From positions 21,853 through 85,852 of the forward strand of contig JADKIZ010000017.1 in the NCBI GenBank assembly GCA_016722445.1: a stretch of DNA of 64,000 nt. The letters are read 5' to 3'. The position numbers were made by a program, and so were the translations under genes. The stretch is from Flavobacteriales bacterium. GTDB taxonomy: Bacteria; Bacteroidota; Bacteroidia; Flavobacteriales_D; Sanyastnellaceae. The notes under the pieces are model-generated. The model saw only the letters and a list, made by a program, of their open reading frames with translations. It was not told the DNA's origin and ran no database searches. Shown piece by piece: positions 612 through 62,930 of this stretch (positions within the stretch are counted from its first letter, which is position 1; each line of letters opens with the position of its first letter).

Positions 612-3600
612 TTAGTTTGTAACGATGACCTTTTGATTTACAAGGCCATCAGCATTTTCACCACGGATAAAATAGAATCCGGTACTCAAACCTGTTATTT
701 CTGTTCTGAATAAATTGTATTCATTCAGTTCAAAAGTGCTTACCATTTGACCAACCTGATTGATTAAATAGAATTGACCTTTTGAAGGTGACTCAACCAT
801 GAAAGTACCAGTATTCGGATTAGGATAAATTTTCAAATTAACATCCACATCCATATTCTTGAGAATGGCTTCATCACCGCCCTCCGCAGCCATACATGTA
901 GTAACAGTCACCGACTTAGATCGGTTTGCAGAAGTACCGCATGCGTTCGTTGCTTTCACATACAACGTACCATTTACGCCACCCCAGTTCACCGTCAAAG
1001 AATCAGTTCCTTGTCCTGAAGCTATCGTAACGCTTGCAGGAACAGTCCATGTATAAGTTAAACCACTGATTTCAGTAGTAGAATATACCAATCCGGTCTG
1101 ACCACTGCACACAGGTGTAGGACCGACAATGGTTGCCGGCGTAGCTGGCTTACCATACAAGGTGAGGCATTTGTTTGTTCCATTACCACAAGCATTAGAT
1201 GCATAAACACATAGAGATCCGGAAATGAAGTTCGCAGGAACGTTGATCACAACGCTGTTACCATTATTGGTTACCATCGTGCAACCAGCAGGCAATGTCC
1301 ATGTATATCCTGTAGCTCCTGATACTGCACTCACGCTATAAGTGAAGTTACCACCAGCACAAAGGTTGGTAGACGTACCAGAGATCACGCCCGAAATATT
1401 CGGCACAGAATAAACATTGGTACTTCTGATGGCACCTGTTCCGCAATTGCTCACGCCTCGCACACTCACAACTCCACTTGTAAAGTTGGATGGGAAAGTC
1501 ACGTTGATGCTGTTCGTTCCTTGACCTGAATTGATCACTGCTCCTGATGGAACAGTCCACAAATAACTTGTAGCAGCAGTCATCGCTGCGATGCTATAAG
1601 TCTGGGTTGAACCCGAACAAACTCCAACCGTAGTTCCGGAGATGGTTCCAGGCGTGCCAGGAATACCATAAACAGACATATTGCGATTAGAACTTTGACC
1701 AAAACAATTCACAGATCTCACTGAAACTGTTCCTGATGTTGTGAAAGCAGCACCGAAAGCAATGGTGCAAGATGTTGTTCCCTGTCCACTCACAATGGAT
1801 GCATTCACTGGTGCAGTCCATGTGTATGACGCAGCATTAGTAACAGGAGAGATCGTGTAGGTCTGGGTTGTATTTGCACAAACATTAAAGCTTGGTCCTG
1901 AAATCATGCCCGGCATGGAAGGATTAGCCGTGAGTGCAATGACAGAGCGACAGAAAGAAACACTTTGACCGCAAGCATTCACTGCTTTGATGCAAAGATT
2001 ACCAGTCGCATAAGTAGCGCCAAAGCTTAAAGTAATCGAGTTTGTGGTTGAACTTCCAGTTGCTCCAGTTGGCAATGTCCACACATATGAAGTTGCACCA
2101 GCCACTGGATCAACATAGAAAACATTTCCTGTTGAATTTCTACAAACACCATTCGGTCCATAGATAAATGTTGGAGCTGCAGGGGCACTGCCACCATCAT
2201 TGCCAACAACCGCGTTTGCGTTTGCTGTGCAACCACCTGCTCCCGTTATGGTCACCGAATAATTACCAGCTTGCACATTGCTTAAATCCTCACTGGTGGC
2301 ACCATTGCTCCACAAATAAGTGAATGGGCCAGGATTATCTGATACAGTAAGATCAACACTTCCATTGCTTCCTCCAACACATGTTGCGTTAGTTGCTACT
2401 GCAGAGGCAGTCATGGTGCAACATCCTTCATCGACCGAAGTATCGCAGTCATCATCTATACCATTGCCACAAACTTCTGTAGCACCCGGATAAATGTTCT
2501 CATTGCCATCATTACAATCGGTGCTGTTGCCTACATAACCAATAGGCTGCGTGCAGCCAGTGCTGGTCGAGGCCAAATCACCAAATCCATCACCGTCTGT
2601 ATCTGCATACCAAGTAGATGTCGCAGAAACTGTGATGGATATTTGATTCGAATTAGCTGTTGAAGGACTTGCACAAGCGTCATTCGATGTCAATACACAA
2701 CTCACCACCTGACCATTGGTCAATGATGAAGTTGAATATGTATCGCTGTTGGTACCTACGTTAGAACCATCCACTTTCCATTGATAAGAAGGAGATGCGC
2801 CACCATTGGTTGGTGTTGCAGTGAAGGTCAATGATGAGCCAGCACAAGTTGGATTGCTTCCACTAGTCAATGCAATTGCAACAGATGGTGTTACTGATGT
2901 AGTAACGTTCATCGTGATATTGTTTGAGTTCGCAGTTGTCGGACTTGCACAAGATGCATTCGATGTCATTGTACAACTTACCACCTGACCATTGGTCAAT
3001 GATGAAGTTGAATATGTAGCGCTATTGGTACCAACGTTTGAACCATCCACTTTCCATTGATAAGAAGGAGATGCGCCACCATTGGTTGGTGTTGCAGTGA
3101 AGGTCAATGATGAACCTGTACAAGATGGATTGCTTCCACTAGTCAATGCAATTGCAACAGATGGTGTTACTGATGTAGTAACGTTCATCGTGATATTGTT
3201 TGAGTTCGCAGTTGTCGGACTTGCACAAGATGCATTCGATGTCATTGTACAACTTACCACCTGACCATTGGTCAATGATGAAGTTGAATATGTAGCGCTA
3301 TTGGTACCAACGTTTGAACCATCCACTTTCCATTGATAAGAAGGAGATGCGCCACCATTGGTTGGTGTTGCAGTGAAGGTCAATGAAGCCCCTGCACAAG
3401 TTGGATTACTTCCGCTTGTCAATGCAATTGCAACAGATGGTGTTACTGATGAAGTAACCGTCATCGTGATATTGTTTGAGTTCGCAGTTGTCGGACTCGC
3501 ACAAGATGCATTCGATGTCATTGTACAACTTACCACCTGTCCATTGATCAATGATGAAGTTGAATATGTAGCGCTATTGGTACCAACGTTTGAACCATCC

Positions 3601-6600
3601 ACTTTCCATTGATAAGAAGGAGATGCGCCACCATTGGTTGGTGTTGCAGTGAAGGTCAATGAAGCCCCTGCACAAGTTGGATTTGTTCCGCTTGTCAATG
3701 CAATTGACACAGATGGTGTTACTGAAGAAGTAACCGTCATCGTGATATTGTTCGAGTTCGCAGTTGTCGGACTTGCACAAGATGCATTCGATGTCATTGT
3801 ACAACTTACCACCTGACCATTGGTCAATGATGAAGTTGAATATGTAGCACTATTAGTACCAACGTTTGAACCATCCACTTTCCATTGATAAGAAGGAGAT
3901 GCGCCACCATTGGTTGGTGTTGCAGTGAAGGTCAATGAAGCTCCCGCACAAGTAGGATTGGTTCCGCTTGTCAATGCGATTGACACAGATGGTGTTACTG
4001 TTGAAGTAACAGTCATTGTGATATTGTTCGAGTTCGCAGTTATCGGACTTGCACAAGATGCATTCGATGTCATTGTACAACTTACCACCTGACCATTGGT
4101 CAACGATGAAGTAGTATATGTTGCACTGTTGGTGCCTACGTTCGAGCCATTCACTTTCCACTGATAAGATGGAGATGCACCACCATTGGTTGGTGTTGCC
4201 GTGAAGGTCAATGATGAACCTGTACAAGTTGGATTGGTTCCGCTTGTCAATGCGATTGACACAGATGGTGTTACTGAAGAAGTAACCGTCATCGTGATAT
4301 TGTTTGAGTTAGCAGTTGTTGGACTCGCACAAGCGGCATTCGATGTCATCGTACAACTCACCACCTGACCATTGGTCAATGATGAAGTAGTATATGTTGC
4401 ACTGTTGGTGCCTACGTTCGAGCCGTTCACTTTCCATTGATAAGATGGAGATGCGCCACCATTGGTTGGTGTTGCAGTGAAGGTCAATGAAGCTCCTGCA
4501 CAAGTTGGATTTGTTCCGCTTGTCAATGCAATTGACACTGATGGTGTTACTGTTGAAGTAACGTTCATCGTGATGTTGTTTGAGTTAGCAGTTGTTGGAC
4601 TTGCACAAGATGCATTCGATGTCATCGTACAACTCACCACCTGACCATTGGTCAATGATGAAGTAGTATATGTTGCACTGTTGGTGCCTACGTTCGAGCC
4701 GTTCACTTTCCATTGATAAGATGGAGATGCGCCACCATTGGTTGGAGTAGCAGTGAAAGTCAATGATGATCCCGCACAAGAAGGATTGTTTCCAGATGTG
4801 AGTGCTATGGATACTGCTGGAGTAACCGCATTATTGACTGTCATCGTAATACTGTTCGATGAAATCGTTGCTGTTCCTCCACCAATCGTAAAGGTGATGT
4901 TTGGTCTGTAAGAAACAGTTGTACCTGTCGCAACAGAACAAGCACCTGCACCAGCTACATCGTCTGCCTGATAATAAGTGCAAGCTACAAAAGAGCTTGC
5001 CGTTCTGTAAGTTTGATATGCTGCCGTACCGACAACTTGGTTAGAAAAACAAATATCAATGACGATATTGCTTGTTCCATCCCAGTTGAAAGGGGTTGTA
5101 AATACATGTGTATTCAATGTATTGAGCGCTGGTGTGTAGTTTGTTGGTCCATACACTGTTGTAAATGTTGGGGTTTGGAAGGTGGTTGTAGCGACAGTTG
5201 CGGTAGTATGCGCCATTTTCATGGTATAACCATTCAAAGTAGCTGGATCACCCGTTGTTCCTGCTACATCAAATCCCAAAGAAGAAATACTACCAGCAGC
5301 GAGACCGAGTGCTGTCAATTCCGATGCACGGATAATCCATTGTTGACGGCCATTACCGTAATATGTTGGATAAGCAGCTCCCTGAGCACTTGTTGTCGCA
5401 TTTGTGGTAGTACCTGTTCCGAGTTTGGCAATCGAAGGACAAGAACCCGCAGAGGTCAATTGACATAATACAACATCATTATTGGCCAATGCTGAAGTTG
5501 TGTAGGTGGTACTATTTGTTCCCACATTGCTACCATTCAATTTCCACTGATAAATCGGGGAAACGGCATTGGTCGTCGTAGCAGTGAATGTCGCGCTAAC
5601 TCCATTGCACATAGGATTCGTACCTGCTGTCTGTGCTACGCTAATGGTTGCTGAACCAGCAGAATTTACCGACATCGTGATGGCATTTGAGGTAGCAGTT
5701 GATGAAGTCACACATGCCACTGAAGAGGTCATGACACAAGTAACTATCTGTCCGTCGGTTAAAGTAGCAGAACTATAAGTCGGACTGTTGGTGCCAACAT
5801 TGGTTCCGTTCACTTTCCATTGATATGAAGGTGTTGCTCCACCATTAGTTGGTGTTGCAGTAAATACCACACCAATATTCGGACATGTTGGATTCGAACC
5901 TCCAGTAATGGCAATGGATACTGCTGGAGTAACCAAAGTTGTAGTTGACATGGTGATGGCATTTGACGTTGCTGGATTGTTGGTAACACCTGCCAGATTT
6001 GAGGTCATCACACAAGTCACAACTTGACCAGCAGTCAATGTTGAAGTTGAATATGTTGGACTGTTGGTTCCCACATTGGCTCCGTCAACTTTCCATTGAT
6101 AAGATGGAGATGAACCACCATTGACAGGAGTTGCGGTAAACACAGATGTTTCACCAGGACATTTTGGATTATTACCACTTGTTAGAGAAATAACGACACT
6201 GGCATCCGTGGTGCAGCTTTGGATTTGATACGAAAAGATATGCGTTCGGGCAGCACTGCCTCCACTTGTACCCCCCATGTATTCACTGGTACTCCAGAAA
6301 GTAATACCATCAGGATCGAGACAAGTGTGCGAGTAATCTCCAACCCTGTTTGTTCCTGTCTGATAACCAGTACCAGCCACCACCTGTACTTCCGTCAAAG
6401 GAAGTGTACCAAGTGGGTCACAAGTTCTTCTACCAGTATAATAGAGACCAGGATAAATAGAGGTTGCATCAGACTTGATATAACTCAAACCAATAGAACC
6501 GTTGTTATCCATTGCAATTGCACCCATCCAGCGTGTAGCTGCATCAGGTGTATAGATACCTTGCTGATAGACAGACCATGTTCCTGTTGATTGATTCTGG

Positions 6601-7808
6601 CGCATTTCGCACCACATAATGCTGCGTTGATTTGCATTGATCCTTACACCCCAATTCAATACAACAGTATTGTATCCACCCCAAATTTTATACTGGGCGC
6701 GGTACATCAAAACGCCGCCAATACCATCCAGCTTTTGGGTTGTTCCTGGTTGTGAACAGTCATTCCAACTTGCATTATATGATGCATCAAAAGAATCAGT
6801 TGGAATTGCACCAACAGAAGTAATTGTCGCAGTTGGTGTTGTTGGCACCCAGTTCACACTCATGTTATAAATATTGATGGCATCAGTGAAACCAGCTCCC
6901 CAACCATTGTCCGAATAAGAAAAGATTGGGCAAGGTGTACCTACTGCAGGCAGAGAGCCATCTGCGGCATCTCCAGGCAATGGACAAAAGAATCCACCAC
7001 CATCTGGTGGAGAGTAGTTGACATAATCAGATCTGGCAGAAGCAGATCCAGCAAGCATGGCATCACGTTCAAAACAAAACACCTTCTGGGTGGATTGATT
7101 TGATGTCATGTAATAACCATCCGACCATACTGAGAACTTCAAATAGTCTGGGAATTGTGGTGAGGTGAATGTATATGTATAGTATGAACCTGTAGGATCA
7201 GCTGATGTAGAAACGGCGATATAAATATTGTTGTTTCCTGAACCGAATTGCGCCAAAAACCAACGATTGGCCGCTTTGTCGTACATCACAATCGGGTCAC
7301 CTGCGTTTGCAGTTGCAGGACTCCAAAGGTTACCCAAAGTGGCCGTAAGCTGCACTGCTCCAGTTGTTTTATTGTAGACTTTAAATGTTGTGCTGTTGAT
7401 CATTTGCACATAGTGATTCGGACCAACGGCACCAGATGGGTCCATCGGACGAAATCCAGTGGCTGTTTGACCTGACCAACTCGCTTTCATTTCGCCAGAA
7501 GGCAATACCCCTTTGATTTTTTGCAGAAGCTTTTCGGAGTTTCCGTATTTCTCACCATGTTCTTCCACGGTGTAAGGAAACTTCTGAGGTGTGCGGTGAA
7601 GCCTATCACCACTTTCTTCACGCCCCTGACGTTTGATTTTGCGTTTCAAGAAAACTTCGTCCTCATTTACTGGATTTTCTTTGAAAATTTCTGAGATTGG
7701 ACGTGTTACATGAAATTCAGATGCAACAATAAAGTTGCTTTCATTGTTTTGTGAAAACGACACGATGGACAACATGACCATTGTGCACAACAGGTAAATT
7801 TTCCTCAT
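612..7808 (-). CDS. giant T9SS-secreted adhesin-like surface protein (type A CTD). From N to C: unknown ~600-aa domain, about 13 Ig-like ~92-aa repeats, a Cys/Asp-rich metal-binding-like motif, SprB-type repeats, then the Por sorting domain.
   Basis: Uninterrupted 2398-aa ORF with an N-terminal signal peptide ([20 protein letters not shown]). About 13 repeats contain '[33 protein letters not shown]'. 'DTDGDGFGD...[25 protein letters not shown]' is a metal-binding-like motif. '[51 protein letters not shown]' is SprB-repeat-like. The C-terminus '[17 protein letters not shown]...[19 protein letters not shown]' matches a T9SS type A sorting domain. Confidence 0.85.
2640..4860 (-). repeat. about 8 near-identical 276-bp tandem repeats inside the adhesin gene, each encoding one 92-aa Ig-like domain
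   Basis: Antisense 60-aa ORFs recur at an exact 276-nt period (2806, 3082, 3358, 3634, 3910, 4186, 4462) and differ by only 1-3 residues. The sense protein shows near-identical 92-aa units. Confidence 0.9.
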
Positions 7809-10105: not shown

Positions 10106-10528
10106 ATGATCATAAAAGCAGAACCACGGACGATACTCAACTTCCTCCACACCTATTTTGATGTGATGCGGGATTTGTTTCAGTATCAGACCACAGACGG
10201 ATTGATCACCAAAGAAGTGTATGACATGCTCATACAGAAACACGGACATGTGATGAACATCCGTCTGCGCGAATTCAGGGTAATCAGAAGCATGGGAAGC
10301 GACTACGAAATGCGTGATGTCTATTACAGACTCATGGAATTCCTGTTGTTTGAGTTTAAACCTCTTCTGCCCGAAACCATTGAAAAGTATAAGTCGAGTA
10401 TTGGCGATCTTTATTTGAAGATCCGCAAATACGAGAATCAGAGATCGCGATATTCTTCAGGAAAGGATCAAGAACCTTTCGCATCAGGTGAGGGAATTTG
10501 TGGATTTGGTAGAGAGAAACACTTTTAG
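10106..10528 (+). CDS. hypothetical alpha-helical protein, probably the N-terminal part of the next ORF (frameshift)
   Basis: 140-aa ORF. The +1 frame is open from 10419, so a single indel between 10419 and 10528 would fuse it to the 272-aa ORF. The C-terminal 25 aa are low-complexity, as expected for an out-of-frame tail. Confidence 0.45.
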   Translation: MIIKAEPRTILNFLHTYFDVMRDLFQYQTTDGLITKEVYDMLIQKHGHVMNIRLREFRVIRSMGSDYEMRDVYYRLMEFLLFEFKPLLPETIEKYKSSIGDLYLKIRKYENQRSRYSSGKDQEPFASGEGICGFGREKHF

Positions 10529-11306
10529 GTTATTGGCAGAAACGCGTGATCTCAAGTCGAATCTCGAAAGAATTGACTATCGCGAAAAAGTTCACAAAGC
10601 GTCATTCTGGATCGAATATTATATTCTTCCTTTGAATCGCATTCTGGACGTAAAACACTCTGAATCGGTTACGAGCACCATCATCGATGTGAGTGAATAT
10701 GCCAACAGACGAAGGTTGGATTTTGAAGATGAAACCATCCGTGTTGAATTCGAAAAACTCTATACACAACTCATTCAGACCAATACCGATTTGTTGAGAC
10801 AGTCGAAAGTATTGGTGAATGAATTGCTTCCTCTTCTTGAGCGTATCCGCACTGAATCATTGATCCTGACCGGCTGGATCGAATTCCTGAGGAATCCATA
10901 TAAAATGGATACTCCTCCCCTGCTCAAGGGTTCACGCACCATGGTTTACGCCAAAGACATGCTGTTCAAAGTGCGCGAGTTCTTTGAGCAGTTTTCTACC
11001 AATGAAGTCATTACTTTGGAAGACAATGTGGTTGAATTCGACAAATGGATCTTCGACCGCAATCACTTCAAAGGCAAGCTGGAACAGAACATGCCGGTGA
11101 ACGACTTTTTTGGATGGTGCTACAAAGAGCTACAAAAGGATTTTACGGAAATCGATACCGATAAATTTTTCGCCTTGTGCGGACTTTTATTCGACAGTGA
11201 TTTGCTGATCGAATTCCCAAAAAAAGGTGAGCGTATCAACCTCACAACTACCACTTCCAAAATTTCATTGCCTAAACTCAAAGTTGAACCAGCGGTGAAA
11301 CTTTAA
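10488..11306 (+). CDS. hypothetical alpha-helical protein. The A+B fusion would be about 410 aa, a candidate kleisin-like (MukF/MksB/JetA-like) partner of the downstream MukE-like protein.
   Basis: 272-aa ORF with a GTG start that overlaps the previous ORF by 41 nt in the +1 frame. It is rich in E, K, L and F with predicted helices. No catalytic motifs were recognised. The kleisin assignment is inference only. Confidence 0.45.
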   Translation: MREFVDLVERNTFRLLAETRDLKSNLERIDYREKVHKASFWIEYYILPLNRILDVKHSESVTSTIIDVSEYANRRRLDFEDETIRVEFEKLYTQLIQTNTDLLRQSKVLVNELLPLLERIRTESLILTGWIEFLRNPYKMDTPPLLKGSRTMVYAKDMLFKVREFFEQFSTNEVITLEDNVVEFDKWIFDRNHFKGKLEQNMPVNDFFGWCYKELQKDFTEIDTDKFFALCGLLFDSDLLIEFPKKGERINLTTTTSKISLPKLKVEPAVKL

Positions 11307-11341
11307 TTCAGACATTATCAAACGATCAAAATCAGACAACG

Positions 11342-11878
11342 ATGGTATATCCTCCAAAACATAGAACAATTGTAGAAGAACTCATGAATGGAAAATTCAT
11401 TCTCAGCAATGAAGAAACATTCACCATTCTGAAAGAGAATGACAAATTCTATCAGGAATTTTTCAAGCTGTCGTTCGATTTGGAATTGTATCTCAAAGCA
11501 GACTACGCTTTTCTATTGAGCAAGGATACACAGGAGAATTTCTCCCGCGACGTGAGCATTTTCATTGCAGTGTTGAGTTATGAATTGGATAAAGATGGTC
11601 GCAATTTCATGGAAGCCCTTGAGTTCAATGAATTCACTTTCGAGGAAATCGATCGCTATTTCGATAACTCATCATTCATTGATTTGATCGAAAGCAATAA
11701 ATCTCTCCGCGAGCCAGATGCACGCCGCACACTCATCAATGGTATGCACAGAAGAAATATCGTCAATAAAAATTTCGACGATCGTTTTTCATTCACACAA
11801 GCACACCGGGTATTCGTTGATTTCGCCAAAGAACTCGCATTGAAGCGGATGGCGCACGACGGAGTACACGCGAATTGA
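11342..11878 (+). CDS. hypothetical protein with MukE/MksE/JetB-like (KITE, DUF4194-like) features
   Basis: 178-aa ORF. The segment 'FYQEFFKLSFDLELYLKADYAFLLSKDTQ' parallels the E. coli MukE N-terminal winged-helix region '...[27 protein letters not shown]' as I remember it. The size fits a KITE protein. Confidence 0.4.
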   Translation: MVYPPKHRTIVEELMNGKFILSNEETFTILKENDKFYQEFFKLSFDLELYLKADYAFLLSKDTQENFSRDVSIFIAVLSYELDKDGRNFMEALEFNEFTFEEIDRYFDNSSFIDLIESNKSLREPDARRTLINGMHRRNIVNKNFDDRFSFTQAHRVFVDFAKELALKRMAHDGVHAN

Positions 11879-11910
11879 ATTATGAATTATGAAGTATGAA
11901 TTATGAATTT
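11877..11910. repeat. short arm of 5 heptamer repeats (GAATTAT/GAAGTAT), inverted relative to the long array downstream; it overlaps the stop codon of the MukE-like gene
   Basis: gaattatgaattatgaagtatgaattatgaatt is the reverse complement of the unit in the 12056-12236 array. Confidence 0.8.
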
Positions 11911-12055
11911 TGGCGGAGGCTTGGTTGAGATCGAATGTGAATTTGTGAAACCTTAAAAATCTTGGGAACATCTAATATTTATAATTTAAAATTTAAAATT
12001 TAAGATTATACGCGAAATGAAGTCTATAAGCCATCTTAGTGCTTTGTTCTGCATA

Positions 12056-12236
12056 GTTCATAATTCATAATTCATAATTCATAATTCATAATTCATAATT
12101 CATAATTCATAATTCATAATTCATAATTCATACTTCATAATTCATAATTCATAATTCATAATTCATACTTCATAATTCATAATTCATAATTCATAATTCA
12201 TAATTCATACTTCATAATTCATAATTCAAAAAGCTG
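12056..12236. repeat. tandem array of about 26 copies of the heptamer TTCATAA (with the variant TTCATAC every 5-6 units), sitting between convergent genes
   Basis: Directly visible as cataattcataattc repeated. Every reading frame hits a stop within 21 nt, so it is non-coding. A 150-nt spacer containing (aatttaa)x3 separates it from the inverted short arm. Confidence 0.9.
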
Positions 12237-12255
12237 TTTTATAACGAAGTACAAA

Positions 12256-13010
12256 TCAAAGCGCACTAAGGCGTTCATTGACCTCCTGCTTTTTCCTTCT
12301 TGAAATCTCGAATTCTTGTCCACCCTTGAGGGTTAAGGTGAAGGGTTCCTTTTTGCTGTAGTGCGTGACACAGTTGACGTTGACAACACAACTTTTGTTG
12401 ATTCTCAAAAAGAGCTTAAAATCTTCCAGCACCTCTTCCAATTCTTTCAATATCCTTGATGTGATGATTTTTCGCCATTCTGTAAATGAATGATAGCGTA
12501 GTTCACGTCTGATTCCATGAAAGCGATTTCTCCGATTCGAATAAACCTCACCTTGCCTTTGTCGTGTATAGCCAACGATTTTTCCAACTCCACTTCTTTT
12601 GCATTGTTGAGTAAATGCACCACCTGCGATGTCTGGTTTTCCGATTTGATCATCGTTGATTTTGCCCGGTGCACCGCAGAGACAAGCTCTTCCACTTCAA
12701 CCGGTTTCAACAAATAATCCAACGCACTGAATTTGATCGCGCGAATGGCATACTGATCAAAACTGGTGACGAAGATGATTTTGAAATCAATGGTGCTAAA
12801 TTTATTCAGCATACCAAACGCATTACCTTGTGGCATCTGAATATCCAGAAAAACCAAATCAGGTTTAAGTTGATGAATCAATTCGTAACCATCGTGAGCA
12901 TTTCCGGCTTCGCCGACAATTTCCACTTCAGGACAAAACCTGGTGAGCAATTTTCGAAGAACATCCCTATTGGAAGGTTCGTCATCGATGAGCATGGTCC
13001 TGATCAACAT
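12256..13010 (-). CDS. LytTR-family response regulator (REC + LytTR), split by an apparent frameshift at about 12447-12450
   Basis: N-terminal REC motifs 'MLIDDEP...LVFLDIQMP...'. LytTR is split across two ORFs: '...VRFIRIGEIAFMESDVNYAIIHLQNGEKSSHQGY*' then '(L)KELEEVLEDFKLFLRINKSCVVNVNCV'. Confidence 0.75.
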
Positions 13011-13011
13011 A

Positions 13012-16000
13012 TTACAATTCTATGGTTATTCTCACATTGGTACCAGCAGCGCTTTCCTGATCGAACAAATCAGTAATGACCACATTAAAAGTTGTCTGAT
13101 TCATTTTTTTCAATGCATCAATTTTTTCGCTTACCAGCGACATCCCCATGGATATTTTGATATCACCCTCATGTAGTTCAGCAGATTTCTTGCGTCCTAC
13201 GCCATTGTCCGTGATATCGATGCACAAGGTATCGTCCATCATCACACAAGAGATTTTTAGGATTCCCCTTCTTTGATCCAACAGCGGCATCAAACCATGC
13301 CAAATCGCATTCTCCACATAAGGTTGCAAAATCATTGTGGGTATGCGGAGATCGAGGTTTTCCGAAACTGATTCATCCATTTCAAGCACAAATTCAAAAG
13401 AATTCCTGAAACGCAGTTGTTCCAATGAGATATAAAGTTTCAGCCAATCAATTTCCTTCTCCAGGCTAATTTCATTTTCCCGTGAATTATTCAACACCAT
13501 TCTGATCAGCTTCGCAAACTTCGAGAGATAATCATATGCCTGCTGTGTTTCATTGTTCAACACAAAATCCTGAATAGAGTTGATCGAGTTGAAAATAAAA
13601 TGCGGATTCATTTGCGCGCGAAGTGCAGTAATACGACTTTCTGCAATAAGCATTTCAATTTCACTCTTCTCTTTCAGTTTCCTGTTGTAGTGCGCTACAC
13701 GGGCACGGATGATGAGATAAATAAACAACAACAATAACAATGACATGAGAAGAATAAACCACCATTTCACCCAAAATGGTGCTTTAATATCAAAACTGAA
13801 ATACAGTTTAGACGAATGTACTTTTCCAGTTTGATCGACATCAGCAAGATACAAATCATAATGTCCATGCGGTAATCTTTTGAATTCAACCACATCATTG
13901 GAAGTCAATTGCATGGTGGAATCATATCCGACAAGCTGATAAGCATATCTTTCAGAGAACAATTCATGAAATGAAATCGCCGCGACTTGAAACACGATGT
14001 TGTTGTCAGTATAAGAAAGTGATTGACCCGTCTGGTAAGGATTACCATTCACCAAGATGTTTTCCAGAATAATTTTTCTATTCATTTGATTTCCGTCAAA
14101 CTTCATCAAATCGACCAATTCCAAGCCATCTCTGGTTACAACATAAAGCGTATTTCCTCTTTTGCAACAACCATTTGTTTCGTTACTATTCAGTCCATTT
14201 GAGCGGTTCAAAACACCAATGACCGATAAATCACCTTCGGTAAAGTAATTGATACCTTGTTTGGTTGAGATCCACACACGACGTTGATCATCAACATGGA
14301 CATCCGAACAGAAATCTGAACTCAGGCCATTTTCAGAGGAAAGTCTCGTGAATTCATTGTTTCGATAAATGAAAACACCAGCACTTTTTGTGGTGATGTA
14401 AATAGATCCCGATTCACTTTCAAGCATAGAAGTAATAACTTGTCCACCCAAAACCTCTGGAAATATTTCTTTGATTTCATTGTTTCGAAATGCATACAAA
14501 CCATTTCGGGTACCAACCCATACCTCGTCCCTGCGTTGAATATACAGTAGGCAAGTGCCACGAACCTGCATGTTCACGATTTCTATCCACTTCAAATTTT
14601 CTATCCGATATAATTTGTTATAGGATAAACCGACAAGTCCAAATTTTGGATCATACGCCATATCATTGGTAGATACAGGTACATTTTTCCAATTGTCGCC
14701 GATGTATGTTGTCAAACGCAGTGAAACAGGATCCAATTCACCACCCGTAGAACCACAGTAATAAATGCGGTTGTTGCAACTTCTGATCCTTAAGTCACCA
14801 ACGTTATTGATACTTGCCAACGGCAGACTTTTTCTGACGTTATTGAATTGATCCAAAACATACACATGATGATCATTGGTTGCGATGTAGACCATGGAAT
14901 CAATCACTGTAATATCCTGCACGGCCTCATCCAGACCAGGGTAATTTTGATAACTGACATTGTGGAGATAAGGAATATAATAAACTCCATTTTGAAGACT
15001 GCTCATCCAAATTCCGCCTTCAAAATCTTCTGTGATTGAACCGATCGTTTCACCTAAGAATAACATTTGAGGAATTGCGCTCAGTCTGCCATTTTGAAGC
15101 AAGGCAACACCATTTCCATTTGAAAGGCTCACCAGCAGATTACCTTCCCTATCTTCAAAAACCGTCAGGATGGTGGCCGCGAATTCCCTTACAAAACTGA
15201 ATTTTCCATTATTGAATTCATACAATGAATTGAGAAAAGAAAACAGGACTCGACCATCGCGGAGTTTTACCGAAGACATCCTCGAGTTGACGCCCTCAAC
15301 CAAAGAAAACTGATCCGATCATTGAATACACGATCACCTTCTATGACGCCAACGTCCATCATTCCTCGTTTATCCTGCGTCTGAATTTTAAACGGAGTAG
15401 CATCGGTAATGGAAGCAACTGATTTTCCATTGTTCAGTGAATAAATAGCTGCATAGATGTTGGTGTTAAAATTTCGAATGGAAAACTGTGTATATCCGGA
15501 TTCAGCAAAAACCACATAAGGATTGTAAGAAGTCCCTATGTGAATGTCGCCGTTGGTATCTATTTTGAACGAGACAATAGATGCGGCATCCTGTCTGATC
15601 TGAGCCGCCAGTGCATTGGATACCGGAAGTTTTTCCACCTGATCATTCGTGATTCTGCCAACCATACCATCTGAAGCCACGAAGAATACGTTGTTCTGCG
15701 CATCGATATCAATACAAATGATGCTGTTTGCAGTGACATTTTTCGCTGTGAAAAAATTGCGGAAATTCCGCCCATCAAACCGGCTGATACCTTGGTCACC
15801 AGCCATCCATACATATCCGTTTTGATCATTGATCACAAAATAACTGGCAGAACCGGGAAGACCGTCATTCACTCCAAGGTTTCTATACACCGGATGTTGC
15901 CCCCAACAGCATACACCGAAGAGGATTGTAATTAAAACGATCAACAGCCTGGTCCACATACTTTGCAATAATAAAACAGCATAGAGGCTCAGAAACGACC

Positions 16001-16912: not shown

Positions 16913-17420
16913 TGTTTCTCATTCTAACTCTTGCCTTTCGACCACTGCGGGGTCGGATTCAGAATGAGAATGAAAATCAGAATGAGAATGAATATTTAGG
17001 CGAATGAGACTATGCATAGTTAAGTTTTTTCTGCGATCTCCGCTGCTCTGAGATCTCTGCGTTCAGAAACTTCGGGACGCCGAGAACGCCGAGGAGCGGA
17101 GTACGCGGAGTTTTTCTGCGATCTCAGCTCCTCTGTGCACTCCGCGTCCGGTTTTAGAATGAGAATGAACATACAGACAAATGTGACTATGCATAGTTAA
17201 GTATTTTCTGCGATCACTGCTGCTCTGATATCACTGCCTTCAGAAACTTCGGGACGTTGAGGACGCTGAGGAGCGGAGTACGCGGAGTTTTTCTGCGATC
17301 TCCGCTGCTCTGCAAACTCCGCGTCCTGTTTTCCAATAAGTTTGCAAGACAGTTCAGACCAGTCTTATATTCATTCGCATTCTGATTCAATTACTGATTC
17401 TCATTCTAACTCTTTCCATT
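16912..17420. repeat. composite palindromic repeat element of about 500 bp: a tandem duplication of a ~180-bp unit (4 copies of a ~24-nt core TTTTCTGCGATCTCCGCTGCTCTG), bounded by imperfect inverted GAATGAGAATGA-rich termini and flanked by copies of ttctcattctaactctt
   Basis: Core copies at about 17029, 17112, 17206 and 17290. The inter-core segments are themselves duplicated (for example cttcagaaacttcgggacg...gaggagcggagtacgcggag occurs twice). 'ttctcattctaactctt' is present at both 16912-16930 and 17399-17417. Confidence 0.8.
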
Positions 17421-28584: not shown

Positions 28585-28697
28585 TGCATAAATTTTAATA
28601 TTTCCTACTCTGTTCTAGGCCTTTCGGAATTCGCCTCATTGCAATTTAACCTTGGACAAATTGAGTATTGGTTTGTTTCAACATGTCCATCCTGCTA

Positions 28698-60901: not shown

Positions 60902-61236
60902 ATGACCAAAAAAATCTTACTTCCCATCTTGGTAGCTGGATTGGCTACACTGGCAGCATGTTCAGCTAAAAAAGCAACCGCAACTGCCGCTGCAATCACA
61001 CAAGCTGATGCTGATAAAGCAGCCATCAACTTCCCGGGCGCTACCCTTGCTTCATTGAATGAAGGAAAAATGCATTATGAAAACAATTGCGGCAAATGTC
61101 ACGCTCTGTTCCAACTACAGAATTCAGTACTGAAAAATGGCATAAAGTTGTTCCTCCCATGGCCGAAAAAGCTGAAGTAGATAAGAATGTAGAAGATCTT
61201 ATTTTGCAGTACGTGGCTACTATGGCAAAACCTTGA
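60902..61236 (+). CDS. small lipoprotein c-type cytochrome (single CxxCH), with its C-terminal third in another frame
   Basis: Lipobox 'LAACS' and heme motif 'NCGKCHAL'. The +1 frame continues '...KWHKVVPPMAEKAEVDKNVEDLILQYVATMAKP*'. Confidence 0.5.
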
Positions 61237-61362
61237 GTATTTAGTAGTTAGTATTGAGTAGTTAGTATTGAGTAGTTAGTATTTAGTATTGAGTAATTAG
61301 TATTGCAGAACGGGGTATGGTACTAGGTACTAGGTGTTAGGTGCTAGGTGTGGGTGCTGGAG
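61237..61362. repeat. short tandem repeats (~14-mer tagttagtattgag x4; 7-mer ctaggtg x5) opening an AT-rich repetitive region
   Basis: visible directly in the sequence. Confidence 0.8.
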
Positions 61363-62789: not shown

Positions 62790-62930
62790 CTACCAGCAAT
62801 CGGCGGTTCAGTGGTTTCCAGAAGATTTGTACTGGAAGAAAGTTCAGTGATATATTTGAAAAGAAAATAGAAGTCGCCAACCACTGTAAAGCTACAAACA
62901 GAATAGCTACTAAATACTAAATACTAGTTA
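62790..62930. repeat. copy 2 of the dispersed repeat (no intact ORF)
   Basis: see copy 1. Confidence 0.7.

What the first reader, a model, noticed from the sequence alone, without database searches (positions are those of the whole stretch)
11877..12236. TTCATAA heptamer array of ~26 copies with a short inverted arm, replacing the expected downstream genes
A 181-nt tract of exact 7-bp repeats (cataatt) with a periodic C variant every 5-6 units lies between convergent genes. A 5-copy arm in inverted orientation overlaps the stop codon of the MukE-like gene. The two arms are separated by a 150-nt AT-rich spacer that itself contains (aatttaa)x3. Perfect 7-mer microsatellites of this length are rare in bacterial chromosomes. 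The inverted arrangement could form a long-range stem. Candidate roles are a slipped-strand contingency tract, protein-binding iterons, or a deletion/recombination scar where the ATPase genes of the upstream module once sat.
Basis: seen in the sequence. Interest (0 to 1): 0.55.

Follow-up and report, generated by a model that had tools for sequence, protein, structure and literature searches.

The report
Variable heptamer repeat hairpin between genes
The tract is real. It is a strain-variable 7-base tandem repeat (12 to 25 copies) with a short inverted partner, sitting just past the stop codons of two converging genes in a Flavobacteriales bacterium, and it belongs to a known but poorly understood class of bacterial heptamer repeats rather than being a gene switch, a protein-binding array or a deletion scar.

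Summary
(CATAATT)x25.3 lies at 12052-12228. An inverted (TGAATTA)x5 arm at 11875-11912 starts on the TGA stop of an MksE-family gene. A 139-nt spacer separates the two.

The arm is the reverse complement (37/38) of the last 38 nt of the long array, including a mirrored G/C variant 19 nt from each outer end.

Five other assemblies of the same species (MksE 97-99% identical) carry the same element. They have a nearly identical spacer but 12-13 right-arm units, and one has a 19-nt insert. The tract is therefore neither an artefact nor fixed in length: it is a VNTR. A sister species with identical gene order has only 42 nt here and no repeats.

No relative has an ATPase gene downstream of mksE. 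Where an SMC-like gene is present it lies upstream. The "replaced genes / deletion scar" reading fails.

The same heptamer array occurs in at least 119 stretches of other genomes across several phyla. Period 7 dominates the tandem repeats in those loci. AATTCAT is a published polymorphic VNTR in Flavobacterium psychrophilum.

Best reading: a slippage-driven heptanucleotide repeat in inverted arrangement, able to form a stem of about 35 bp in read-through RNA. Any function is unproven. It is a new member of a known kind, of modest interest.

The parts
11342..11878 (+). MksE-family gene (178 aa). Its TGA stop (11876-11878) is the first triplet of the left heptamer arm.
   Evidence: Pfam PF21980 at 1.2e-17. 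100% identical to MBL0316821.1 / IPP69_14075 of a Flavobacteriales bacterium MAG.
11875..11912 (.). Left inverted-repeat arm: TGAATTA TGAATTA TGAAGTA TGAATTA TGAATTT, with the G variant at 11894.
   Evidence: TRF 4.9 copies. 97% complementary to 12192-12229. Always 5 units in the strain variants, but the G-variant units differ between them.
11913..12051 (.). 139-nt unique spacer. It is nearly identical in the same-species contigs and is not repeated elsewhere in the window or in the fetched loci.
   Evidence: A 23-mer from it was not found in metagenome contigs.
11973..12007 (.). Mini-array (TAAAATT)x5 inside the spacer. It also differs between strains. In contig L317 the sequence departs from the shared spacer here, followed by an IS30-like transposase gene.
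12052..12231 (.). Right array (CATAATT)x25.3. Unit 1 is CATAGTT. Units 12, 17 and 23 are CATACTT (C at 12133, 12168, 12210).
   Evidence: Same-species contigs have 12-13 units, one with a 19-nt insert.
12192..12229 (.). Terminal 38 nt of the right array, the exact partner of the left arm. Equivalent pairing registers start at 12115 and 12150.
   Evidence: I1-I3. Duplex energies are -45.9, -45.7 and -45.7 kcal/mol.
12256..13010 (-). Convergent response-regulator gene (receiver + LytTR). It is read as two ORFs (12256-12450 and 12447-13010) because of a 1-nt shift in an A-run. The sister-species (L120-L124) and same-species (L314) copies are intact at 251 aa.
10106..11306 (+). Gene upstream of mksE, which I call mksF-like from its position only. 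It is read as two ORFs here and is intact at 399 aa in all relatives.
   Evidence: No Pfam family reaches its cutoff.

Best explanation
This is a species-specific, hypervariable heptanucleotide tandem repeat. It belongs to the class called long simple sequence repeats (LSSR), VNTRs or, in cyanobacteria, STRR. It is laid out as an inverted repeat in the 3' intergenic gap between the convergent mksE and lytTR genes.

Shown:
- It is real.
- It is present in every assembly of this species that reaches the gap, and absent from the sister species.
- The long arm changes copy number between strains (12, 13, 13 and 25 units, plus one 19-nt indel). The short arm stays at 5 units but shuffles its variant units.

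Inferred:
- The arrays grow and shrink by replication slippage. Part of the growth is in blocks of 5-6 units, because the complement of the 35-nt left arm recurs three times in the right array.
- The mirrored G (11894) and C (12210), each 19 nt from its outer end, arose by intra-strand template switching or gene conversion between the arms.

Consequence (inferred, not shown): any transcript that reads out of either gene carries both arms and can close a stem of about 35 bp, rich in A-U. The energy is -35 kcal/mol in the other strains and -46 kcal/mol here. The stem would act, if at all, as a 3'-end double-stranded structure: a barrier to exonucleases, a substrate of the RNase III type, or a buffer between converging transcription units. 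It occupies the position where more distant relatives carry ordinary hairpin + T-run terminators.

It does not switch a gene on or off, because it lies beyond both stop codons.
For: - Sequence and statistics.
- Strain polymorphism with a conserved spacer.
- Absence in the sister species with identical synteny (42-nt gap).
- Ordinary terminators after mksE in more distant relatives.
- Three equivalent pairing registers at about -46 kcal/mol. Pairing of -35 kcal/mol retained in the other strains. Fold z-score of -4.6.
- Class context: period 7 accounts for 303 of 632 TRF rows in the 119 loci fetched with this motif, including 144-145 arrays of other heptamer motifs (89 distinct).
- All 121 classifiable TTCATAA arrays are intergenic.
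- The window holds further heptamer arrays at 61236-61358 and at 62908. The sister species has a patch of eight heptamer arrays about 4 kb away.
- Literature: heptamers are the over-represented LSSR class, with polymerase slippage proposed as the cause (PMC4692102, PMC4679880). AATTCAT is one of eight intergenic heptamer loci in the polymorphic VNTR typing set of Flavobacterium psychrophilum (PMC4501049). Inverted heptamer pairs and between-species length variation are reported in Xanthomonas (PMC4692102).
Against: - No transcript, 3'-end or RNase data exist for this organism, so the RNA-level consequence is pure inference.
- The stem is A-U rich and is not followed by a T-run. The terminator scan finds nothing at the element.
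- In the other strains two G-A mismatches interrupt the stem, so perfect pairing is not conserved.
- A loop of 139-279 nt makes cruciform extrusion in duplex DNA unlikely.
- Slippage and template switching are inferred from patterns, not observed.
- The exact count of 25 rests on one assembly, which shows homopolymer frameshifts.
Confidence: 0.72

Rival explanations
1. It is a miniature mobile element (MITE-like or palindromic) whose terminal inverted repeats are made of heptamers. It inserted between mksE and lytTR in the ancestor of this species.
For: - 38-nt terminal inverted repeats at 97% complementarity.
- The orthologous site in the sister species is an 'empty' 42 nt.
- The same layout, (TTATGAA)n-spacer-(TTCATAA)n, recurs in 22 places in unrelated genomes, against 4 in the opposite order, and in 90 metagenome stretches.
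- Some genomes carry multi-copy composite heptamer modules, for example in Lentisphaerae loci.
Against: - No target-site duplication at the outer ends.
- No second copy of the spacer in the 64-kb window or in about 300 fetched loci.
- A spacer 23-mer is absent from the metagenome collection.
- Spacers of the look-alike hairpins elsewhere are unrelated to each other.
- The arms vary by whole units, as an SSR does.
- The window and the sister species are only about 72-75% identical in DNA, so 'empty site' is a weak argument.
Confidence: 0.1
2. It is a selected RNA element: a bidirectional 3'-end hairpin that ends, processes or stabilises both convergent mRNAs. The heptamer composition would be merely how the stem was built.
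For: - Pairing potential is kept in all strains.
- Distant relatives carry canonical terminators at the same position.
- In 90 metagenome loci the short-loop versions sit a median of 6 nt after stop codons and 18 nt before the first in-frame ATG of the next ORF.
- There is a strong orientation bias of 22:4, p = 5e-4.
Against: - There is no T-run and no G+C-rich stem.
- The sister species manages with 42 nt and no hairpin.
- The arms are asymmetric, 5 versus 12-25 units.
- The compensatory G/C pair is seen in only one strain.
- No Rfam family matches.
- The metagenome loci were selected by a pattern that demands perfect arms.
Confidence: 0.12
3. It is a phase-variation (contingency) tract that switches mksE or lytTR expression by copy-number change.
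For: Copy number does vary between strains. The array gives sigma-70-like hexamer matches.
Against: - The repeat lies downstream of both genes.
- The mksE stop is the first triplet of the array, so unit gain or loss leaves the protein unchanged.
- The promoter-like hits are an artefact of the repeat. The Bacteroidota promoter consensus differs from the sigma-70 type (my own knowledge).
Confidence: 0.02
4. It is an array of protein-binding sites (iterons, or sites for the adjacent LytTR regulator or the Mks proteins).
For: Many regularly spaced identical units. Three units span 21 bp, about two helical turns.
Against: - No replication gene lies adjacent to the element among the genes identified around it.
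- The orthologous LytTR and Mks genes in the sister species lack the array.
- The same heptamer occurs next to unrelated genes in many phyla.
Confidence: 0.03
5. It is an assembly artefact, or a scar of a deletion that removed the ATPase genes of the Mks/Wadjet-like module.
For: The window comes from an assembly with homopolymer frameshifts. No SMC-like gene is present in the 64 kb.
Against: - The element was assembled independently in at least four other samples.
- The SMC-like gene of relatives lies upstream of mksF, not downstream of mksE.
- The sister species lacks both the ATPase gene at this locus and the repeat.
Confidence: 0.01

Closest known systems
Long simple sequence repeats with heptanucleotide units (LSSR, Mrazek et al. 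2007), including cyanobacterial STRR repeats
   Same: Head-to-tail 7-nt units, far longer than chance, strictly intergenic, length-variable between close relatives, and sharing intergenic regions with other heptamer arrays.
   Different: The motif is A+T-rich. It is arranged as an inverted pair with a mirrored variant base. The host is a Flavobacteriales bacterium.
Flavobacterium psychrophilum VNTR locus FpVNTR4 (unit AATTCAT; PMC4501049)
   Same: The identical heptamer in a different rotation, in the same bacterial order. The locus is intergenic and belongs to a VNTR set that gave 25 different profiles among the isolates.
   Different: A different locus and species. Nothing is reported about an inverted partner arm or array architecture.
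GGGAATC heptamer repeats of Xanthomonas (PMC4692102)
   Same: Intergenic heptamer arrays of 2-26 units. Some occur as convergent inverted pairs able to form stem-loops. Length and sequence vary between related species at conserved loci.
   Different: Those repeats are G-rich and form quadruplexes, and they are found in Gammaproteobacteria.
TAACTGA heptamer repeats of Beggiatoaceae, Cyanobacteria and Bacteroidetes (PMC4679880)
   Same: One specific heptamer forms arrays in distant phyla, with long arrays mixed with other heptamers in Bacteroidetes. Assemblies often break at them.
   Different: A different motif. In Beggiatoaceae the repeats lie mostly just upstream of start codons, and almost never as inverted pairs.
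REP/BIME and Correia-type intergenic palindromic elements
   Same: What it may work like: an intergenic inverted repeat that folds in mRNA at gene ends.
   Different: Those are dispersed multi-copy elements of fixed sequence, some mobilised by dedicated transposases. Here the stem is a tandem heptamer of variable length, and no second copy is known.

Membership tests
Heptanucleotide LSSR / VNTR | Head-to-tail tandem copies of a 5-11 nt unit | tested here: met
   TRF period 7, 25.3 copies, 95% matches.
Heptanucleotide LSSR / VNTR | Longer than expected by chance for the sequence composition | tested here: met
   27 matches against 0.09 expected in shuffles.
Heptanucleotide LSSR / VNTR | Copy number differs between closely related strains | tested here: met
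   25 units here, against 13 (5 + 19-nt insert + 8), about 13 and about 12 units in L314, L315 and L318, whose MksE is 97-99% identical.
Heptanucleotide LSSR / VNTR | Length heterogeneity within one population (read level) | not testable with these tools
   No reads are available.
Contingency (phase-variation) locus | Repeat lies inside a reading frame, or between promoter elements or upstream of a start codon, so that unit changes alter expression | tested here: not met
   The array starts on the mksE stop codon and ends 24 nt before the lytTR stop on the other strand.
Iteron / regulator-binding array | Repeats associated with a replication or regulator gene whose orthologues keep the sites | tested here: not met
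   The sister species has orthologous LytTR, kinase and Mks genes but no repeat. No rep gene lies adjacent to the element.
Iteron / regulator-binding array | Specific protein binding | not testable with these tools
   Needs EMSA or ChIP.
MITE | Terminal inverted repeats | tested here: met
   38-nt arms, 97% complementary.
MITE | Target-site duplication flanking the ends | tested here: not met
   The flanks ...GCGAA| and |AAAGC... share no direct repeat of 3 nt or more.
MITE | Multiple copies with the same internal sequence | tested here: inconclusive
   None in the 64-kb window, the fetched loci or the metagenome scan. The rest of the source genome could not be searched.
Intrinsic terminator | Short G+C-rich stem-loop followed by a T-run | tested here: not met
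   The scan finds no such site in the element. The stem is A+T-rich, the loop is at least 139 nt, and the flanks are TTCAAAAAGC and TTCGCGTG.
Deletion scar of a Mks/Wadjet-like operon | Relatives carry the missing ATPase genes at this position | tested here: not met
   Downstream genes in relatives are LytTR, ORF6N, DinB or PSCyt1 genes. The SMC-like gene lies upstream.
Known RNA family (Rfam 15) | Match at or above the gathering score | tested here: not met
   No hit at the locus. The only sub-threshold match is mir-1 at E = 0.79.

The most novel reading that the evidence does not exclude
Inverted heptamer hairpins of the form (TTATGAA)n-loop-(TTCATAA)n may be a distinct class of gene-junction elements found across phyla, under selection or made by a dedicated mechanism. 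The window's locus would be an expanded member. Three patterns point that way. They strongly prefer one of the two possible orders (22:4). They sit within a few bases of stop codons and of the next start codon in 90 metagenome loci. They keep their arms while their loops differ.
Probability: 0.2. Interest if true: 0.6.

Novelty: new member of a known kind. Interest (0 to 1): 0.3.

Why it matters
Heptamer repeats have been known in bacteria since about 1990. They are the most over-represented class of long simple repeats, yet neither their origin nor any function is established.

This locus gives a clean natural series:
- a sister species without the repeat;
- several strains with 12-13 units;
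- one strain with 25 units and a compensatory change between the arms.

That series shows how such an element is born and grows at a fixed site beyond two stop codons. In practice, these arrays break short-read assemblies and can serve as strain markers. For the neighbouring Mks-like and LytTR genes the repeat has no demonstrable meaning.

Tried and rejected
1. Deletion scar / replaced ATPase genes. Rejected from synteny in 15 related loci and from the upstream position of the SMC-like gene.

2. Assembly artefact. Rejected because the element is present in independent assemblies. The frameshifts in neighbouring genes lie in homopolymer runs and look like long-read errors, not decay.

3. 'Stop pad' idea, that heptamers are chosen because they put stop codons in all frames on both strands. 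This is true for this motif, but among 89 other heptamer motifs the excess is small: 27 observed against 19.4 expected. Dropped.

4. TTCATAA as a uniquely favoured motif. In viral contigs it gives 40 stretches, against 27 and 22 for two composition-matched controls. That is only a mild excess.

5. A conserved flank motif next to the arrays. None is general. Flank families exist only within particular genomes.

6. Bias towards convergent gene pairs. Not seen among 121 arrays: 87 tandem, 19 convergent, 15 divergent.

7. Spacer as a dispersed element. No other copy found.

8. Exact-protein look-up of the window's MksE and of P0001 failed. The strain series was reached only through the cluster members.

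9. The viral scan for the two hairpin orders gave 2 versus 0, too few to use.

10. Sigma-70 promoter hits inside the array are a by-product of the repeat.

Full report
**1. What is in the sequence**

Reading 11500-12700 and running Tandem Repeats Finder gives three period-7 arrays in one intergenic gap:
- TGAATTA x4.9 at 11876-11909;
- TAAAATT x5.0 at 11973-12007;
- CATAATT x25.3 at 12052-12228 (95% matches).

Two-unit 14-mers (up to 1 mismatch) match 27 times in the window, all at this locus. Shuffles give 0.09.

The left arm 11875-11912 is the reverse complement, at 37 of 38 positions, of the last 38 nt of the long array (12192-12229). The single G variant of the left arm (11894) and the last C variant of the right array (12210) each lie 19 nt from their outer end.

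The C variant recurs at 12133, 12168 and 12210. The complement of the whole 35-nt left arm is therefore present three times in the right array, and the arm can pair in three registers of equal strength, -45.7 to -45.9 kcal/mol. Units 2-11 are perfect and unit 1 is CATAGTT. The spacer between the arms is 139 nt.

**2. Neighbours**

ORF 11342-11878 (+) is an MksE-family protein (PF21980, 1.2e-17). Its TGA stop is the first triplet of the left arm.

On the minus strand the gap ends at the stop of a receiver + LytTR response regulator, followed by a histidine kinase.

The regulator, the kinase and the gene upstream of mksE each appear as two ORFs. I call that upstream gene mksF-like from its position only. 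Comparison with intact orthologues (251, 981 and 399 aa) places the regulator and kinase shifts in short A- or T-runs. The shift in the upstream gene was not pinned down. I take these as long-read assembly errors, not pseudogenes. This is an inference.

The MksE protein is identical to MBL0316821.1 (IPP69_14075) of a Flavobacteriales bacterium MAG.

**3. Comparison with relatives**

*Sister species* (MksE 96% identical; DNA about 72-75% identical over the region). The gene order is the same: giant secreted protein, trypsin-like protease, 399-aa gene, mksE, lytTR, kinase. The mksE-lytTR gap is 42 nt and has no heptamers, in six independent contigs.

*More distant relatives.* They have other genes downstream of mksE (ORF6N, DinB or PSCyt1 families). 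The two groups with DinB or PSCyt1 downstream (L128-L134) carry an ordinary hairpin + T-run terminator after mksE.

None has an ATPase gene downstream. In the groups of P0004 and P0011, a protein of about 890 aa lies upstream of the 399-aa gene, separated by a small ORF. For the P0011 group I translated its C-terminal 534 residues, which are coiled-coil-rich and contain 'LFIDEIG', which I read as a Walker-B-like motif. tblastn finds no homologue of it in the window.

The title's 'replacing the expected downstream genes' and the 'deletion scar' reading are therefore not supported.

*Same species.* The 90% cluster of the MksE protein held four further sequences, 97-99% identical. Their contigs (L314-L319, alignment) carry the same element. 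The table gives the right and left arms in each.

| Contig | Right array | Left arm (always 5 units): G-variant units |
|---|---|---|
| window | 25 units, three of them CATACTT | unit 3 |
| L314 | 5 units + 19-nt insert (CATCCGAAGGAATAGTTTG) + 8 units | units 1 and 3 |
| L315 | about 13 units, one CATAACT | units 1 and 3 |
| L318 | about 12 units | units 2 and 4 |

- The unique spacer is nearly identical in all of them, but the TAAAATT mini-array differs.
- Two short-read contigs (L316, L319) end inside the left arm.
- In L317 the shared spacer stops at the mini-array and is followed by an IS30-like transposase gene (HTH_38 + rve).

The tract is length-polymorphic and is not an artefact. Only the window strain has the compensatory G/C pair. 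The others have two G-A mismatches but still pair at -35 kcal/mol.

**4. The wider class**

They come from Bacteroidota, Cyanobacteria, Chloroflexota, Lentisphaerota, Ruminococcus and others.
- Period 7 accounts for 303 of 632 TRF rows in those loci. About 145 of these are other heptamers, with 89 distinct motifs.
- All 121 classifiable TTCATAA arrays are intergenic, with no preference for convergent pairs.
- Their median length is 4.9 units and the maximum 22.7. The window's 25 is at the top of the range, although short-read assemblies cannot span longer arrays.
- In viral contigs the motif is only mildly commoner than two composition-matched controls: 40 against 27 and 22.

The literature fits.
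- Heptamers are the over-represented long-SSR class, and polymerase slippage is the proposed cause (Mrazek 2007, as summarised in PMC4692102 and PMC4679880).
- AATTCAT is one of eight intergenic heptamer loci in the polymorphic VNTR typing set of Flavobacterium psychrophilum (PMC4501049).
- Xanthomonas GGGAATC arrays reach 26 units, occur as convergent inverted pairs and vary between species (PMC4692102).
- TAACTGA arrays are shared by Beggiatoaceae, Cyanobacteria and Bacteroidetes, mixed with other heptamers (PMC4679880).

**5. The inverted layout is not random**

In the genome and viral loci, neighbouring arrays of opposite orientation are in the order (TTATGAA)n...(TTCATAA)n 22 times and in the opposite order 4 times (p = 5e-4; some loci are not independent). 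The window has the majority order.

A metagenome scan for that order, with loops of 10-40 nt, returned 90 stretches. The loops are unrelated to one another and some are only 3-6 nt long.

The nearest ORF of at least 100 aa whose 3' end faces the hairpin stops a median of 6 nt before it, often at a TGA inside the array, as in the window. The nearest ORF whose 5' end faces the hairpin has its first ATG a median of 18 nt beyond it.

These loci were selected by a pattern that demands perfect arms, and the ORF calls are crude. I treat this as a lead, not a result.

**6. Mechanism**

*Shown:*
- a fixed site;
- gain of the element in one species;
- whole-unit variation between strains;
- retained pairing potential.

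*Inferred from established knowledge of repeat instability:*
- replication slippage changes unit number, faster in the long arm than in the 5-unit arm;
- part of the growth was in blocks of 5-6 units;
- template switching between the arms (quasi-palindrome correction) copied the G variant into C, which was then amplified.

*Inferred consequence:* read-through RNA from either gene folds the arms into a stem of about 35 bp (fold z-score -4.6).

The element is not a canonical terminator: there is no T-run and the stem is A+T-rich. It matches no Rfam family. It cannot be a frame or promoter switch, because it lies beyond both stops.

I put about 0.7 on 'a slippage-generated VNTR in inverted arrangement whose hairpin is at most a modest 3'-end structure', about 0.12 on a selected RNA element, about 0.1 on a mobile element, and a few per cent on the remaining readings.

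**7. Verdict**

The element is a new member of a known kind. Interest is modest (0.3). Its main value is the clean strain series and the orientation and junction pattern of the look-alike hairpins, which would deserve a systematic survey.

Noticed in passing
window 61233-61358: A second patch of heptamer arrays: TGAGTAG/TTAGTAT-type x9.9, then GGTGCTA-type x5.9. It begins at a TGA about 50 nt after the end of ORF 60902-61180, and that gene may be frameshifted. The plus-strand RNA folds strongly (z = -4.5) but the minus strand does not (z = -0.5), which suggests G-U pairing on one strand only.
   Followed up: partly
window 16979-17332; L120 11485-11957: Beyond the histidine-kinase gene the window has a 177-nt unit repeated twice (87% matches), with internal 85-nt subrepeats and AGAATG hexamer runs. 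The sister species has, beyond its kinase gene and a 278-aa gene, a patch of eight heptamer arrays, part of it in repeated modules of about 120 nt (GTTCAAA and CCTAATA arrays around a shared core). Whether the two regions correspond was not checked. Both are fast-evolving repeat-filled intergenic regions with unrelated sequence.
   Followed up: partly
window 12447-12450, 15267-15303, 10488-10528: Apparent frameshifts split the LytTR regulator, the histidine kinase and the mksF-like gene. The first two lie in short A- or T-runs, and all three genes are intact in relatives. These are probably long-read assembly errors, and other genes in the window may be affected too.
   Followed up: yes
window 10106-11878 and relatives L128-L131: The 399-aa gene and mksE form a conserved pair that sits in different genomic contexts in different relatives. 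An SMC-like protein of about 890 aa plus a 46-aa ORF precede the pair in some relatives but not here. No homologue of that protein is found within this 64-kb window.
   Followed up: partly
L317 1300-2168: In one same-species contig the shared spacer stops at the TAAAATT mini-array and is followed by an IS30-like transposase gene (HTH_38 + rve). This is either an insertion into the element or a rearrangement there.
   Followed up: partly
loci L224-L313 (metagenomes), L018-L111 (genomes): Short hairpins (TTATGAA)3-6-loop-(TTCATAA)3-6 recur in many unrelated contigs. Many of the contig names recur from a few metagenome projects. The hairpins almost fill very short gaps between a stop codon and the next start codon. 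The order of the arms is strongly biased, 22:4.
   Followed up: partly
L005, L010, L011, L024, L030, L034, L094 (Lentisphaerae/Lentisphaeria MAGs where the record title was shown): A multi-copy composite module, (CGCCCCT)n TAAC (TTATGAA)n ATGCGCCTC (AGCATTC)n, recurs at many loci of the same genomes. This suggests that some heptamer composites are dispersed as units.
   Followed up: no
L001, L033, L057, L062, L092 (Bacteroidales, Prevotella and Prevotellaceae where the record title was shown): Here the same heptamer array sits between inverted copies of TGCAAAGTTA...TAACTTTGCA. These resemble back-to-back Bacteroidota -7 promoter boxes (TAnnTTTG, from my own knowledge). In that context copy number could change promoter geometry.
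   Followed up: no
window 2665-4793: A 276-nt unit repeated 7.7 times (93% matches) inside the 2398-aa secreted protein gene (612-7808, minus strand). It encodes 92-aa domain repeats.
   Followed up: no
window 28602-28637 (-): The only Rfam hit above its gathering score in the window: DUF805b RNA (40.1 bits, E = 6.7e-08).
   Followed up: no
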